From the NCBI RefSeq assembly GCF_006345805.1, contig NC_043015.1, positions 49,972,001 to 50,036,000 on the forward strand: a stretch of 64,000 nucleotides of DNA, in the 5' to 3' direction. The stretch is from Octopus sinensis (Eukaryota). The position numbers and the translations under genes are program-made. A model generated the notes under the pieces. It had not been told where the DNA came from, did not search any database, and saw only the letters and a program-made list of their open reading frames with translations. This document shows positions 19,250 to 56,300 of the stretch, piece after piece (position 1 is the first letter of the stretch; each line of letters opens with the position of its first letter).

Positions 19250-20074
19250 TAAGTTTATTGTATCACACACAACAACTGAAAATCACTTAAAATGTCTTGG
19301 ACTCATTAAGAAGCTCGATATTGTGTTCCACATAAAATGAAAGAGATTCACTTAACATAACAAATCAATATTTGTGATATGCATCTCAAACGCAATGAAA
19401 TTGACCTTTTTTTTAAATGAATCATCACTGGTGATGTAAAATGGATTGTCTACAATAACATCCACCAAAAATGATCATGGTCCAAGCGTAATGAACCGGC
19501 ACAAACCACATCGAAAGCTGAATTGCATCAAAAAAAAGGTAATGCTGTCAATTTGGTGGGATTACAAATGTATTAAATATTTTGCATTGCTTCCAAGAGA
19601 CCAAACAATCAATTCAAATGTTTACTGCCAACAACTAATGAAACTGGAGGACGCAATCAAAGAGAAAAGGCCAGAATTGGCAAACTGTAAAGGAATTATG
19701 TTCCACCATGACAACACTAGACCACACATGTCTTTGCTAAGTCATGAAAAATTATTGGAGCTTGGTTAGGAAGTGATGTCACATCCACCATATAGCCCTC
19801 ACTTTGCACCATCAGATTACCATTTATTTTGAAGTTTGCAAAATTCTTTGAACGGTAAAACTTTCAATAATGATGATGACCTGAAATCGCACTTGCTTCA
19901 GTTTTTGGCTGAAAAGGACCAGAAATTCTATGAGCACAGAGTCACGGAGTTGCCAGAAAGATGGCAAAAGGGCACAGAACAAAATGGAAAAAATATATAA
20001 TAGATTAGATTTCATTCTTTGTATGAAAAAGAATGATTTATTTCACACTAAAAAACTAAAATTACTTCTTGCCA

Positions 20075-25929: not shown

Positions 25930-26830
25930 TGTTTTTTGATTTATTATTAGTGTTGCTTAATATGTTTTGCTAAAATTGCTGGGGTTTTTCCAGATATCAT
26001 CAGAAAATGGTAAATAAAATTTATTAAAATGACAGATCTATTGGACTTTCAAAGGGGTCGATTTGTTGGTGCTTGTATGGCAGGCACTAGTGTAACGAAA
26101 ACAGCCATAAAAACCACTACTTTCAAAAACAAATGTTGCAAAAATTTAGAGTGGAGCAAAGACCTACAGAATTGGTCCCAAGTGGAAGAATGTTATTTTC
26201 TCGGACAAGTCATCCTTTACCTTATTTCCAACCACTGGCTGAGTATATGTGTGGAGACAGCCAAAAGAAGCATTTGACCCAGACTGCCTTCTTCCAACTG
26301 TTAAATATGGAGGAGGATCTGTGATGATCTGGGGAGCTATATCTTGGAAATCCACTGGCCCAATAGTTTCCCTTCATGACAGAATCAATAGTCAAGACTA
26401 TTTAAGCATTTTATGTGATCAAATTCATCATATGGCTGAGGAACTGTTTCTGGAGGGAAATGCAATGTTTCAGGATGATAATGCACCAATTCACACACCT
26501 AAAGTTGTTGCTGAATGGCACGAGGAACATTCTAGTGAAGTTGAACATCTTACCTGGCTGCCCAGTCCCCAGATCTCAATATTAAACATTTATGGTGCAT
26601 TTTAGAAAAACAAGTAAGGAGTCGATATCCTCCTCCATCATCACTACAAGAACTGGAGACTGGTTTAGCTGAAGAATGGACAAAAGTTCCTTCGGAATCA
26701 ATTCAAAATTTGTACAAGTCCATACCTCGTAGAATTCACGCTGTAATCACTGCCAAAGGCGGTCCTACCCCATATTAAAATAAATTTGTTTCAAATTTTA
26801 ATGTGTTTCCATTATTTTGTCCAACCCCTG
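25930..26830 (+). mobile_element. Decayed, internally deleted Tc1-family transposon
   Basis: N-terminus MTDLLDFQRGRFVG; catalytic region PTVKYGGGSVMIWGAIS...FQDDNAPIH...SPDLN; right TIR ccattattttgtccaacccctg-TA. Confidence 0.92.
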
Positions 26831-49279: not shown

Positions 49280-50012
49280 TAGCCAGGGTTATCTACCTTA
49301 AACATTCAGCTTGAAAAGGAAACCAATTTTTCCATTATACGGACATTAACAACAAATTAAACTGCAAGCTGAGCTTGAGTGAGATTTTAGAACTAATATT
49401 TTTCTTTGTCAGGGATATACCCATGACTACAGTAGTGACTAACAGGAATATCTAAAATTACAATAATTGACTGGTACAATATGTGCCGTGACGCGTGTGG
49501 GGCCATAGTTTATCATGTACAACAAGGGAAGATTGTTGGAACAAATGATAACCATATTCAGATTGACAAAGCAAAATTTGCCGGTCGGCGAAAACACATT
49601 TGAGGAAGAATGCTGAATGGTGACAACGCTCCTCTCTTCGAAGACAATGATGCAGAACAACGAAACAACAGGAACCATGGACTTAGAACTGATCAGCCAT
49701 GGGTTTTTGGTCTCAAACAAGGCTCAAACTTTTGTGTGGAATGGCATGACAGGAACAATCTGATCCCAATTATTGAAAGAGAATGTGAAAAAGGTTGGTG
49801 CTCCAGCATGGCCGTGGCCTTCGGGCTAATACATTTTTAAGGATTTCATTCATTCAGATGAGTGGCCCACTTATCATAATTTAAATGCCATAGGTTATCA
49901 CCATCTGACAGTGAACCTTCAACAATATTATGTGGATCCAGTGACCAGGGAACATACTCAAGCCACTGAGTGATCATGATTAGATGCTAAAACTATAATT
50001 CTGAAAAAAATG
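49280..50012 (+). pseudogene. Merlin (IS1595/ISXO2-like) transposase remnant interrupted by a small SINE piece (~49797-49846)
   Basis: Translated pieces DWYNMCRDAC, QIDKAKFAGRRKHI*GR, PWVFG, DRNNLIPII, IHSDEWPTY..L...GYHHLTVNLQQYYVDPVTREHTQATE match ISXO2-family motifs. Confidence 0.85.
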
Positions 50013-50938
50013 ATCTCTGAAATATCTGAAAGAAACAGTAGACAATCCTGTTTGATACCATGGTAGACTGCTCCCAGCAAATCTTAAGTCTTTAGCATTC
50101 AGGTTACACATTGTTTTGAATCAATCATGCATTATCTTGAAGCTTCAAAACTCCAATGATGTGACAGCTTATTTTTAGAATGATATTATAACTAGGTGGA
50201 AGAGATCAGATCTGGCCTCTTTGAACATGAACAGGTAGAAGATCTGGGTCTGATATGGCTAGTTTAAATGCTAATGGGTTAAAAGGACTAATTTCTTTTA
50301 TTATTATTGGGGGACATATTTTCTAGAATAAAAGTCAATCTAGTTTTATTACTTTTATTACTTTTTCCGATCTAATAATCATGCCTCTATCTGTCAGTCA
50401 ATTCAGTATAAGATGGGTCTTTTAAGTACAAATCCTCTGAAATAGTTGCACCCAAACACTTCCATGTCCAACATAACAAACCAATAGGGCTGTTAATAGC
50501 ATTGTTATTTCTATCTGAATTCAGTGGTACACAACCACAGAGATCAAATTTCAAATAGATAATGATTATTTATTTTTTGAAATCATTATCTATTTGAATC
50601 TGGTGACACACACCCCAGTGATTGAAGTTGGAAAACAAATACTATCACAGCTAATGTGTCTGAGATGGGTTCAATATTAAAGGTTGGGTAAGAGTCTGAA
50701 TATAAATTTTCCAACTGAATTTCATATTACTACAATAGATAATAACCGCTTGCTACTATCAATTGGAACAAGTTCTAATATGCTTCTCCAACCATTTTTT
50801 GTGATTCAACATCAACTAGTGGAAATATGAATTGGTACTTTAAAGTATTCAAAATATGAAGGAACCACATTTAACAGACATACAATCATTTAACAGACTG
50901 GCATGTTCGAGGCAAAGCAATAGCAAGAATTAATAAGA

Positions 50939-51385
50939 AGTAAAGATTGTTTGCCAACATAACATGGCAGTCCTGGTTTAGGACGAATGTTGCTGTAATT
51001 TAGCCCCAGGAGACATCGTCTCCAGTTAGCTATACTATATGATCTGTGTCTTTATATTTTTTCGAACAAGGGAATCTAGCACCTGCACTCAGGGCAAAAC
51101 AATATCTGTGTATTGCAATTTCCAGGTTATTTCCTTTCATCAGTACAGAATAATTATTCGGCTAGAGGTGGCACTGCCAAATTCCTGTTCGAAATATATA
51201 GTTTTCAAAGTGACAACTAGTCACTGACCTTTAAATTAAAAACTAGGACACAGATTGTGTCATATAATATAAGGATGCAGATCATGTCAAATAACCAGCT
51301 GGAGACGATGTCTCCTGGGGTTAAATTACAGCAACATTTGTCCTAAACCAGAACTGCCATGTTATGTTGGCAAACAATCTTTACT
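50939..51385. mobile_element. Fold-back/MITE-like element with ~90-115-bp terminal inverted repeats
   Basis: agtaaagattgtttgccaacataacatggcag...gtctccag reappears reverse-complemented at 51298-51385. Confidence 0.85.
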
Positions 51386-52721
51386 CCAAAATACTGTAGC
51401 TGAATATCTCTCATTGTGAGATTTACAAATAGTAATTTTCTAAGAATTAATTAGTTTTAAACGAGTTCCAACAGTGCCAGAACTTTTATTTAGTCCACAA
51501 CTACTACTATGGCTCCAACAACACCATGACTTTTATTACAGTCCATGGCCACAATTAGTATAATTTATCACCTGCCTGTTTCAGTTGTTGATCCATCAAA
51601 CTAGAGAAGTAGATGACTTTTGAGAAGTTTTAGTTGACTAATGAGTACCCAAAACCTCCTTGGAATTAAGGTAAACTCAATACTAATATACTCTTGAATA
51701 TCCTAACTGATATTATACAATTTTCCTTGGAGTGGTCCTTGCTTGGTAGTGCAAACATTCTCATTATTAATTTGTCCTATACTTTCCTTTATAAAGCTAC
51801 AAGTGGGTTGTTTTTTTATTTTTTGTTGCTCAATTTGCTTAGTATTCTACATGTATGACATTTTCCAATTAATAAACACATTTATAACCGGAAAATTGTA
51901 TTTTGGAAATTTCTTCCTTTTAGCAACTGGCATTTTTAAGTTCTACTTTCAGAGAAATACTAAGTAATTTTTGTTGTACGAAGCTTAGACAGGCATTGAG
52001 TGACATATTTCCAAACTGTACTTGTTTATCAAACATCCTTGATCTACGGACTGCCTGATCCATACCTTCAACAAGTCTCAGTTGTATTAATTCATGTTCA
52101 TTACTTTACCCAGCTTAACTATGGTTTTTATAAAACTCACAATATCAAACCCAGTTATAAAAGCCAAGCAAAATTTTTACAATGATCTCACATGACTCTT
52201 GACACAGACACATAAACCAGCTTCATTCAGGAACGACCAATTTTATTTTAGGTCACACATTATTCCATATAATCTACTGTATTCTCTGAAACCAAATGAA
52301 CTACAGACCTTATTGTCAGCCTTCCATAAAAATAAATTAACCTTCTTAAGACCACCAAGGTCATTGCTATCTTTCAATTTCTTTCTTCAAGGTGGGAACT
52401 ACAAAACATTATAACCATGTCTTATCAGGATCAGTAAGCGCCAATCAGGTATCCTACTGGCAATGCCATTTGTTGAGGAAAATATTAATTGATAACAATT
52501 CTTTCTACCATAGGCACAAAGCTGAAATTTTAGGGAGGAGAGTTAGTCGATGACATCGACTCCAGTACTTCAAACTGCTGCAGGTTAAGGGACACTTTGA
52601 CTACAGCTGTAGTCCTTCCAGTCTTCTTAGCCACCTGTTACATACTGTTCAGACACCTATATTGCTAGATACACAGATCAGAGGAGGAGATATCATTCAT
52701 ACTAAGGTTTATATATATATA

Positions 52722-53350
52722 TAAAATTAACCAAAGGACATACTAGGTATGTCAACCTGCTTGAAATAACAGTCAAAACTCTTATTATTAAATCACCGAA
52801 AAATACACCGGTGAAAAACTACAGAAATCAAACGAAGGCAAAATCAGGTTAAGATAATCTACTAACATACATTTAAGTATTAAGACTCACGTGGATCGAT
52901 TTCTGCATTGGTAAAGACCTTAGCTTCTTCAGCACGTGTTACCATTATTCAGTTGCAGCACAGACTTCAAAGCGATGGGTTGGGAGTCTCTAATAATGGT
53001 CACACGTGCTGAAGAAGCTAAGGTCTTTACCAATGCAGAAATCGATCCACGTGAGTCCTAATACTTAAATGTATGTTAGTAGATTATCTTAACCTGATTT
53101 TGCCTTCGTTTGATTTCTGTAGTTTTTCACCGGTGTATTTTTCGGCGATTTAATAATAAGAGTTTTGACTTATTTCAAGAAGGTTGACATACCTAGTATG
53201 TCCTTTGATTAATTTTAATCCCTTGGCTATTTAATGCTATTTTTTGGCCTGCTATCGCCTGTGTCATTGATTCTGTTATTATCATTTTTAAAATTGTTAT
53301 ATTGGATAATAATAGAATTAATGACACCTTCGTAAATTAATTTTTAGTGA
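52722..53350 (+). mobile_element. Penelope-like element: ~227-bp inverted arms (52722-52949 / 52992-53217) plus unique tail, flanked by (TA)n
   Basis: Near-perfect inverted repeat with 42-nt spacer; hammerhead motif in each arm. Confidence 0.75.
53003..53053 (+). ncRNA. Minimal type-I hammerhead ribozyme motif (mirror copy 52888-52938 on minus strand)
   Basis: CACGTG-CTGAAGA-[stem II]-GAAA-T CG A-TC-CACGTG: stem I CACGTG/CACGTG, CUGANGA and GAAA core, palindromic stem III ATCGAT, AUC cleavage triplet; stem II is weak. Confidence 0.65.
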
Positions 53351-56300
53351 AATATATATATAACGGGAAGCTTTATGAAAATAGACAAAAGACGAAGGCA
53401 GGTGGAAAACAAACGAACAATATATATATATTGCAACATAAGAAGCATTCAGTTCACTCTGAGGGTGGTTGGTGTCAGGAAGGGCATCCAGCTATAAAAA
53501 CCATGCCAAAACTGATAGTGAAGTCTGGTGGTCTTCTACCTCCCAGCTCCTGTCAAACTGTCCAACTCATGCCTGCATGGAAAACGGACACTAAATGATG
53601 ATGATATGTAAAGATATATCATCCTTTTAACATCAACTTTTACATACTTGCACGAGTCAGATGGAATTTGTTGAGGCAGATTTTCAAGAGAGATGCCCTC
53701 CCTACTGCTAACCCTCATCTGTTTCCTAGTAAGGTAAGATCCCCCCACATTCCTACGCAAGGCATGTATGAGACCCGTATGACAGTGACACTCATTTACA
53801 ATTACCATGAGATTTCAAGAAAAGGAGACAGAAAACTACACACACAATTACATTATGTGTATGTGTATGTGTGATGGGCTTCTTTCAGTTTTCATCTAAG
53901 AAATCCTCTCACAAGGCTTTAGTTGATCTAGGGCTATAGTAGAACACATTTGCTCAAGGTGTCACATAGTGGGACCAAACCTAAAATCAGTAAACAAACT
54001 TCTTAACCACACACCACAAAGTTATCTTGAATGAACAGCAAGTTGATAAATGAGAGTGAATACATAAGATTTAAAATGTGAAGTTGTGATTTTAATAATT
54101 ATGGAATCAATTCTGGAGCAATTTAACCAACACATAAGCTAAACTATAATTAGTCATAAAAAGGATTTTTTTTTGTTTTGTTTTTTTAACAGAGTAGTCC
54201 CAATATGGCATATAAACCATGAGAAATATTTTGCTAAGTGTTTTCCGCAAGAGTTCAAATAATTTTAGGAATTTTCCCCATCTATGTCTTTCCTTCTGAT
54301 GTAAGTCTAATAATAATATTTTGATGTAAATCACGGTGGCTACCATCTGAATACATAATAACACTGCATAAATAAAACTTTAAAATAATAATATTGTGAG
54401 GTTAGATCTGGACATGCAGAGGGCTTTAGAAAAATGAGATGGCAAATCCGAGCTACCACGAGGGAGGGCAGCGGTGGTGGTGTGGTCCAGTGGCCTGGTG
54501 TTTCAGTTAAGCAACATTTTAATGCTGCTCATAGTATTTTTTTTTTTTTAAAGGCATGAACATCATAACGTCATTCTTTCCTTTGCTTTTAAATGTATAT
54601 TTTCGCAGCAACGTAAAGAAATCACTAATATTCGAAGATTTCAGTGGGTGACAATTTCAAGTGGAATAGAGGGAATCGTGAGTTCGATTGTCACTGTTTC
54701 CTAAAAATTTATAATCATTGTCATAAGAAGAGATAAATGATAATAATTGTATTATCATCCATTGTGTGTGCGTGTTTCGTCAATTTGTTTTAAAATATAA
54801 ACATGGATGACTATATTTTCTTCTATCTAATTAAACATTCCACAGATCAGGTGATCAATAGTTCTTGATCAGATATACACATGATAAAACCAGAGGGAGA
54901 GAGAGAGAGAGATTTATTCTATCCAGCCAAGTTAGCCCTAAGAACAGGGGCATGAAAATCAAGTTACGGAAGGCCGTAAAGTGAAACTCTAGGTAAAATA
55001 TTAAATATTTACTGTAAGGCATTAGAATTTTTTCTTCTTTTTTTTGCATACAATTTCAACATAACAGTAATACTTCCAACCACGTTACGACCCGTATGTA
55101 GAGCTATGGGTAGGTACGTACATGAATTCAGACATAACAGTATCAGTTTAATAAATAAATAAATCAATAAGAGGGATATCGTTAGTGGTAAGCCAACCTT
55201 AATCGCGCAGACCTATATTGATGAGAGACGTTCCACCAATATCAAGACTGCGTCATCTATGTTGTTCTCTTCAGGAAGTACGCTGTGATTCAGCTGCTGT
55301 TTCTAGCTGGTCAAGCACCTACTCTTCAGTTTTGCTGACGAAAACTTAAATCAAAACACTTGCTAAATGTAGAAAGTTTAATGTTTCCAACAAATCATTT
55401 CAACAAAACAAGTTTTAAAAGACACATTATACACAACCCATTCGAGGGTGTAACTTCCTACTTGAAACAAAAATTGCTTTTTCTCTGGATAGATCTTAAA
55501 AACTTGGTTCAATATTTACAAGCACAACAGGAACAAGACAAAATTTAACTATATCAGTATCTGGTTAGTGCTAGGTCAACCCTCATCCAGCAGATCTTAC
55601 TTGCTGTTTTAGCTCCAGGTTAGCCCTCAACGAGCAGATAGATCTATGATCAAAAGTATCCTAAACCATGACAGTCTCACATTTTACCACCGATAAACCA
55701 TATAATCCAACGTGTCCTTTTATCTAAAACGGTAGAAGTTTTGTAATTTAAACGAAAACACTTCTGTTATAATGCTACATAACATGGGCAGTTTAAACCA
55801 ACCAACAAGTTTATTTTTAAATAAAATTCAAACAGTATAAACTCGTTTTAGGAAGCTTAAGTTATAATATATCAATATTCTTCCATTTCGTTGACTACAG
55901 CAATGCACTTGAAAACTGCATTATCTCTTAATTTCCATATAATTTATATATATATAACTATATATAACGCCTACTTTAGTCAACAGGAAACGAAGGCACT
56001 CCGCAATGTTAATCAGATAATTAACTCCATAACACTGAAATGTCACCGAATTTATGCTGCGAAATCTCCACAATGGCACCAATAATAATCATTTCTGTCG
56101 TTGATAGAAGCCCGATGAGGGTGGCGAGAACAGTGGAGAAAACCAACAGTATATATTACTGGTACTTATGTGACCGACTCGCGGAGGGATTGCTACAATA
56201 ATAAACTATTTATTGTGGAAATAACAAACGACAATGCTATTCGACGACGTAAAACTAAATTTTAAATTAAATTGAACACACCCTGAGTCTAAAAGAACAT

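What the first reader, a model, noticed from the sequence alone, without database searches (positions are those of the whole stretch)
52722..53350. Microsatellite-embedded element with two mirror-image minimal hammerhead ribozymes
Seen: ~227-bp near-perfect inverted arms around a 42-nt spacer, then a ~130-bp one-sided tail, bounded by (TA)n. Each arm contains CACGTG-CUGAAGA...GAAA-UCGA-UC-CACGTG. Known: Penelope-like retroelements carry minimal hammerheads with palindromic stem III that act as dimers, and often leave an inverted partial terminal repeat. Inference: a young non-autonomous Penelope-like insertion. The mirror arrangement puts a ribozyme on the host gene's minus strand, locked inside a long hairpin, so the pre-mRNA could switch between dsRNA and self-cleavage. 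Stem II is atypical, with an A-A at its base.
Basis: partly seen in the sequence, partly recalled or inferred. Interest (0 to 1): 0.75.

Follow-up and report, generated by a model that had tools for sequence, protein, structure and literature searches.

The report
Two-armed Penelope-type hammerhead repeat insertion
This is one copy of a non-coding jumping repeat that carries a predicted self-cutting RNA and was likely pasted into a TA repeat from both sides of a DNA break by a Penelope-type enzyme; the mirror layout is a common by-product that would silence the ribozyme rather than make a switch, but the family's fixed end points give a testable clue to how these elements insert.

Summary
52722-53350 is two 5'-truncated, head-to-head copies of a 472-bp non-coding repeat (over 100 copies in G000) with one minimal type I hammerhead per unit. 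The core is conserved (1.3% versus 5.9% variation, p=0.0006) and the stem III palindrome covaries (AUCGAU/ACCGGU). Copies end at two fixed sites, unit ~340 and ~470, followed by (TA)n. In 37 of 37 classifiable two-armed insertions one arm ends at each site; the '130-bp tail' is simply the distance between them. This is Penelope-like (PLE) insertion architecture. Three autonomous RT+GIY-YIG families in the genome also end in (TA)n, but none shares sequence with the unit, so the partner is unidentified. The proposed dsRNA/self-cleavage switch is not supported: each strand holds one ribozyme, its antisense is transcribed first, the hairpin wins by ~89 kcal/mol, and no host gene was found. Three loci end at the predicted cleavage site, a weak hint of cutting in vivo. 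The scan noted the same two-site pattern earlier in other families and genomes. Verdict: new member of a known kind (non-autonomous PLE/retrozyme-like).

The parts
52710..52723 (.). (TA)n target remnant at the 3' end of the minus-strand arm
52722..52949 (-). inverted arm: unit positions 115-340, 5'-truncated copy ending at fixed site A (~340)
   Evidence: 47 of 137 segment ends at 333-345
52888..52938 (-). minimal type I hammerhead motif, predicted cleavage after 52894
52949..53350 (+). direct arm: unit positions 72-472, 5'-truncated copy ending at fixed site B (~460-472)
   Evidence: 48 of 137 segment ends at 459-472
52950..52991 (+). 42-nt 'spacer': ordinary unit sequence (about 73-114) that only the longer arm reached
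53003..53053 (+). minimal type I hammerhead motif, predicted cleavage after 53047; 6-bp stem I, interrupted stem II with A-A at its base, palindromic AUCGAU stem III
53218..53350 (+). 'tail': unit 341-472, the stretch between the two fixed 3' end sites
53261..53327 (+). AU-rich hairpin inside the tail; many short arms have their 5' truncation in it
53352..53362 (.). (TA)n target remnant at the 3' end of the plus-strand arm
53362..53421 (.). 60-bp fragment of a different, very abundant repeat sitting in the same TA tract (not part of the unit)
   Evidence: 95% to L093:909-968; very high contig depth

Best explanation
The element is two head-to-head, 5'-truncated copies of a 472-bp non-coding repeat with one minimal hammerhead motif per unit, likely written into a (TA)n tract by a borrowed Penelope-like RT/GIY-YIG enzyme that primed one copy from each cut DNA strand. 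Shown: family, unit, head-to-tail junction, two fixed 3' end sites, one site per arm, (TA)n flanks, core conservation and covariation. Inferred: the endonuclease cuts both strands in (TA)n; reverse transcription starts internally at site A (unit ~340) on one strand and site B (~470) on the other; both cDNAs stop early and are joined at their truncated ends; the tail is the A-to-B distance. Inferred: the ribozyme works for the mobile RNA, as a dimer through the palindromic stem III and perhaps with protein help, to process more-than-unit transcripts (possibly to circles). At this locus both motifs are predicted to be sequestered in a ~226-bp hairpin, so the copy is likely a dead passenger.
For: Unit and junction: 27 junction-spanning segments in 86 loci. 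Ends: 107 of 137 segment ends fall at 333-345, 353-363 or 459-472, and 97 of these 107 are followed by a microsatellite. Head-to-head inversions at 48 of 115 loci; in all 37 with both ends classifiable one arm ends at A and one at B, none A+A or B+B (binomial p 7e-12 under 50:50). The window's arms are closer to each other (97.7%) than to any of 92 other copy segments. Core 7 of 548 cells differ (1.3%) against 5.9% at non-core non-CpG positions, permutation p 0.0006 (loci L001-L055 only, found without a core pattern). Stem III C-G to U-A in 8 of 44 rows and stem II U-A/C-G in 20/16 rows. Autonomous RT+GIY-YIG families are present (781 and 775 aa; third family), carry minimal hammerheads and end in (TA)n; the third has two end sites about 55 nt apart. 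Published architecture: inverted 5'-truncated copy, optional tail on one arm, head-to-head most frequent (PMC3846280, PMC8557442, passages); internal RT start at two sites and cleavage of both strands in vitro (PMC11167929, parts 1-2 of 4).
Against: No copy of the unit is the terminal repeat of an ORF, and it shares no significant sequence with the autonomous families tested, so the partner is inferred from behaviour only. The compensatory changes mark subfamilies and may be only two events; the two measures that count pairs or pair types did not beat the shuffles (218/500 and 474/500). The A-A at the base of stem II replaces the usual G10.1-C11.1 next to G12 and could make the ribozyme weak. 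In several loci the two arms are no closer to each other than to other copies (L017, L024, L122, L206). Loci were collected by similarity searches, not at random, and some unplaced contigs may be alleles. No cleavage, circle or transcript was observed.
Confidence: 0.8

Rival explanations
1. The unit is the solo terminal repeat (pLTR) of an autonomous Penelope-like element whose full-length copy was not found; the window holds two severely truncated ends of that element.
For: Same insertion structure as autonomous PLEs; most PLE copies are 5'-truncated (PMC8557442, passages); my DNA searches scored only 40 candidates each.
Against: Copies longer than one unit run from unit end straight into unit start with no ORF between (27 junctions; up to about 1.7 units with two direct hammerheads 465 bp apart at L209). 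No linked ORF in 20 loci read with 4-kb flanks; no blastx match to three PLE proteins.
Confidence: 0.12
2. One reading: the mirror pair is a regulatory device in a host pre-mRNA that toggles between dsRNA and self-cleavage.
For: A read-through transcript would form a ~226-bp near-perfect hairpin, and both motifs have intact cores.
Against: Antisense arm is transcribed first on both strands; hammerhead fold costs about 89 kcal/mol; one sense motif per strand, so no cis dimer; the layout recurs at other loci as a by-product; no host gene found.
Confidence: 0.03
3. The element is a MITE/foldback DNA transposon with long terminal inverted repeats, or a post-insertion fold-back duplication, and the hammerhead is incidental.
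For: Long inverted repeats, no coding capacity, TA flanks.
Against: The inverted repeats are not terminal and differ in extent at every locus; over half of loci have no inverted arm; ends follow the A/B rule, which a fold-back duplication would not give since it would repeat one end; core conservation.
Confidence: 0.03

Closest known systems
Minimal hammerheads of metazoan Penelope-like elements (Cervera and de la Pena 2014, PMC4209133; read parts 1-2 of 4)
   Same: Type I core, short stem I, extra nucleotide after A9, palindromic stem III for dimer formation; most motifs dispersed as single truncated copies; dual motifs on opposite strands 100-700 bp apart already reported.
   Different: An extra A also lies between C11.1 and G12, giving A-A at the base of stem II; no PLE ORF is linked to this family.
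EN+ PLE insertion structure (Arkhipova et al. 2013, PMC3846280, passages; Craig et al. 2021, PMC8557442, passages; Frangieh et al. 2024, PMC11167929, parts 1-2 of 4)
   Same: Partial tandems, head-to-head inverted 5'-truncated copy, tail on one arm, microsatellite target, two internal end sites.
   Different: Tail is about 130 nt, not 30-40; no ORF; strict one-site-per-arm pairing (37 of 37), whereas the in vitro study saw no difference in start site between strands and the 2013 paper explained inversions by self-priming on an antisense template.
Metazoan non-LTR retrozymes (Cervera and de la Pena 2020, PMC7229834, passages; Li, Clavereau and Pollet 2026, 10.64898/2026.07.22.740005, parts 1-3 of 5)
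   Same: Short non-coding unit with one type I hammerhead, head-to-tail junction, proposed mobilisation by PLEs; size within the 51-972 bp range of Li et al.
   Different: Minimal rather than canonical hammerhead; almost no full tandem arrays (one locus with two direct full motifs among those read); circular RNA not shown.

Membership tests
PLE-type minimal type I hammerhead | Core CUGAnGA, GAAA and UH in order, closed by stem I | tested here: met
PLE-type minimal type I hammerhead | Palindromic stem III/loop 3 | tested here: met
   AUCGAU and ACCGGU variants, two-sided change in 8 of 44 rows
PLE-type minimal type I hammerhead | Extra nucleotide between A9 and G10.1 | tested here: met
   A in 51 of 51
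PLE-type minimal type I hammerhead | G10.1-C11.1 pair directly before G12 | tested here: not met
   G-C pair is present (42 of 44) but an A separates it from G12 in 50 of 51 copies
PLE-type minimal type I hammerhead | Self-cleavage as a dimer | not testable with these tools
   co-fold predicts pairing across two strands; three loci end at the site; no assay
EN+ Penelope-like element (autonomous) | ORF with telomerase-like RT and GIY-YIG endonuclease | tested here: not met
   longest stop-free frame 47 aa, no match to three PLE proteins; no linked ORF
EN+ PLE-type insertion | Partial tandems, head-to-head inverted 5'-truncated arm, tail on one arm | tested here: met
EN+ PLE-type insertion | Insertion in AT-rich/(TA)n targets | tested here: met
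   97 of 107 ends at the fixed sites are followed by a microsatellite
Non-autonomous PLE derivative | Sequence homology to the pLTR of an autonomous family | tested here: inconclusive
   none with the families sampled in L056-L093 and L134-L163; only 150 of 5029 and 150 of 7207 candidates were scored and 68 loci read
Non-LTR retrozyme | Tandem units, each with a complete hammerhead | tested here: inconclusive
   head-to-tail junctions are common but only L209 has two direct full motifs; not met in the window
Non-LTR retrozyme | Canonical hammerhead with loop 1-loop 2 contacts | not tested
   motif reads as the minimal type; tertiary contacts were not analysed
Non-LTR retrozyme | Accumulates as abundant circular RNA | not testable with these tools
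   only assembled contigs of guessed RNA runs were available

The most novel reading that the evidence does not exclude
The family is a genomic record of the PLE reaction: a dimeric RT/endonuclease cuts both strands of (TA)n and its two halves start at two different fixed sites of one hammerhead-processed (possibly circular) RNA, one site per strand, and the A-A variant minimal hammerhead does cut in vivo, since a few insertions end exactly at its cleavage site and one of them is joined to the middle of another hammerhead-bearing repeat as if by a template jump onto the free end.
Probability: 0.35. Interest if true: 0.62.

Novelty: new member of a known kind. Interest (0 to 1): 0.38.

Why it matters
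How Penelope-like elements make their head-to-head arms and tails, and what their hammerheads do, is still open: the one in vitro study found the ribozyme dispensable and no RNA ends at its site. A short non-coding substrate with two mapped start sites, a strict one-site-per-strand rule and intact autonomous PLE ORFs in the same genome makes both questions directly testable. The locus itself is an ordinary dead copy.

Tried and rejected
Rfam scan: no hammerhead match, only chance miRNA-like hits. Search for an autonomous partner: GIY-YIG family search and eight 7-kb loci and a third family gave no shared sequence; the one hit (L074) is a separate unit fragment. PLE fragments near L005, L051, L099 and L016 read as separate insertions. 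The same-strand pair 3040 bp apart (L094) is a local duplication, not two pLTRs. I first took the 60-bp right flank for an autonomous PLE end; it is another short repeat. Cleavage-site ends: L114, L203 and L211 were chance pattern matches, L187 duplicates L115, L209 and L210 are point variants, so the targeted search added no new locus; 5' ends near the site (about 6 of the 100 listed) look no denser than background by my rough estimate. Host gene: 111 of 532 low-repeat frames scanned with Pfam gave only transposase remnants and weak hits; four candidate exons had no PDB match; this is insensitive for short exons. Expression: no RNA holder listed; contigs of four guessed RNA runs match other family members at 85-95% and none spans this locus or covers its unique flanks, which is no evidence either way. 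Circular fold of the L009 unit: z about -2.5 against 60 shuffles, paired fraction no higher than shuffles, not informative. Luense et al. on dimer cleavage was not held, so I know it only from a review passage (PMC6765202). Supplements were not read; PMC8557442's supplementary file may list related cephalopod PLE consensus sequences.

Full report
Observation. The sequence is as described. Inverted arms at 52722-52949 and 52992-53217 enclose 42 nt; they differ by 5 substitutions and a 2-nt indel. Each arm holds a type I hammerhead motif, with C17 at 53047 on the plus strand and 52894 on the minus strand. Folding of the plus motif gives stem I, an interrupted stem II and a short stem III, with no unusual stability on its own (z -0.88). 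Rfam finds no hammerhead. (TA)n lies at both ends.

Family. The window lies in a 2.72-Gb genome, G000; earlier scan notes call it cephalopod-like, which I did not check. A DNA search gave 1345 first-look candidates, 40 scored; exact patterns gave 65, 129 and 117 matches with 0, 1 and 0 in controls. Many copies continue 5' of the window's arm and then repeat the element's own 3' end, which defines a 472-bp unit (taken from L009) with a head-to-tail junction; 27 junction-spanning segments were seen in 86 loci, the longest 651 bp, and L209 holds two direct complete motifs 465 bp apart. In unit coordinates the window is a minus-strand arm 115-340 joined head-to-head to a plus-strand arm 72-472. 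The spacer is ordinary unit sequence; the tail is unit 341-472. There is no coding capacity (longest frame 47 aa).

Ends. Of 137 segment ends in 86 loci, 47 fall at 333-345, 12 at 353-363, 48 at 459-472, 4 at 170-172 and 26 elsewhere; microsatellites follow 44, 12, 41, 1 and 12 of these. Both main sites follow the motif ATTAATTTT. Among 115 de-duplicated loci, 48 have a head-to-head inversion; in 37 both ends fall in a fixed class and all 37 pair one site-A end with one site-B end; the other 11 have one end outside the classes (p 7e-12 under 50:50). I ran this test after reading earlier scan notes that describe the same pattern in other families. The loci came from similarity searches and duplicates were removed by hand, so the counts are not a census. 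The window's arms are more alike (97.7%) than either is to 92 other segments, as in several other loci but not all.

Ribozyme. In loci L001-L055, found without any core pattern, the 11 core positions differ in 7 of 548 cells (1.3%) against 5.9% at non-core non-CpG positions, p 0.0006. On 44 distinct rows, 93.8% of cells pair; stem III shows C-G to U-A in 8 rows, keeping the palindrome, and stem II shows U-A and C-G in 20 and 16 rows. Against this, these changes mark subfamilies and may be two events, and the pair-counting controls were not exceeded (218/500, 474/500). The A-A at the base of stem II is family-wide. By eye, hammerheads of two other PLE families in the genome also have a mismatch there. 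Cervera and de la Pena (PMC4209133, parts 1-2 of 4) describe such minimal motifs, their palindromic stem III, low dimer-dependent activity, and pairs on opposite strands 100-700 bp apart.

Link to PLEs. The genome has young RT+GIY-YIG elements (781 and 775 aa) and a large third family. They carry minimal hammerheads near their 3' ends and end in (TA)n; the third has two end sites about 55 nt apart. None shares sequence with the unit, and no unit copy bounds an ORF in 20 loci read with 4-kb flanks. At L095 a truncated third-family copy abuts unit position 277 with a short microhomology; this may be a template switch or a later insertion. The architecture matches published EN+ PLE insertions: inverted truncated arm, optional tail on one arm, head-to-head most frequent (PMC3846280 and PMC8557442, passages). 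In vitro, a Poseidon PLE cuts both strands at AT-rich sites, starts reverse transcription at two internal sites that define the tail, and does not need its hammerhead (PMC11167929, parts 1-2 of 4). Li et al. (10.64898/2026.07.22.740005, parts 1-3 of 5) argue that animal retrozymes are non-autonomous PLE derivatives. My searches for the one-site-per-arm rule found no paper stating it, but the library is incomplete.

Mechanism. Shown: unit, ends, pairing rule, targets, conservation. Inferred: a PLE enzyme acting in trans cuts both strands of (TA)n, primes one cDNA at site A and one at site B, both stop early, and their truncated ends are joined. The ribozyme is inferred to serve the mobile RNA, as a dimer. 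Most copies run intact through the cleavage site, so the usual template was uncut or re-ligated. Three independent loci (L035, L094, L115) end at unit 170-172, just before C173; in L035 and L094 the next sequence is the middle of another repeat, not its end. My rough expectation from the other non-standard ends is about 0.13 in such a window, against 2 in the untargeted sample. A targeted search added none and removed several false candidates, so this stays a hint.

The switch. Both strands fold into one long hairpin with the core paired at probability above 0.99; forcing the hammerhead costs 89.3 and 88.7 kcal/mol, against 2.1 for the right arm alone. On either strand the antisense arm is made first and only one sense motif is present. 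Full mirror pairs occur at 7 of 86 loci (L095 dropped because its inverted motif lacks the first core box). No host gene was found, though the test is weak. The mirror is best read as a by-product that silences the motifs; any read-through RNA would be a dsRNA substrate.

Verdict. A real, young copy of a non-autonomous PLE-type, retrozyme-like family with a minimal hammerhead: a new member of a known kind. The locus is ordinary; the family's end rules are a useful handle on PLE mechanism. Interest 0.38.

Noticed in passing
L116:1332-1742 (G000:C3:35767369 region): Four head-to-tail copies of the ~59-bp hammerhead itself inside one family copy, an arrangement that would allow dimers in cis.
   Followed up: partly
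L209:866-1640 (G000:C10:7810500 region): Older copy of about 1.7 units with two direct complete hammerheads 465 bp apart (core CUGAGGA); natural model for a dimer assay.
   Followed up: partly
window 53362-53421: Fragment of another TA-inserting short repeat, 95% to L093:909-968, whose longer copy appears by eye to carry its own hammerhead on the other strand; extremely high contig depth in run X20.
   Followed up: partly
L134-L163: Large PLE family with two 3' end sites about 55 nt apart in (TA)n; its hammerhead reads CUGAUGC in L138 and L095 and matched the standard core pattern in only 1 of the 29 loci printed.
   Followed up: partly
L088, L092, L093 (781-aa PLE family): Near-identical young copies with an overlapping upstream ORF (479 aa in L088 and L092), a long repeat-rich 3' UTR and a UUGAUAA-type core variant; many copies score identically in the GIY-YIG search.
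   Followed up: partly
L095:4450-5480: 5'-truncated third-family PLE joined directly to unit position 277 with short microhomology; possible template switch between partner RNAs.
   Followed up: partly
window 50300-52700, minus strand: Non-repetitive stretch with short stop-interrupted frames that look like a decayed coding sequence; no Pfam or PDB match.
   Followed up: partly
window 19440-19997, 26243-26605, 49439-49970: Transposase remnants: Transposase_1 match at 19440-19766, ISXO2-like match at 49830-49970, Tc1-like frame at 26243-26605 by eye.
   Followed up: no
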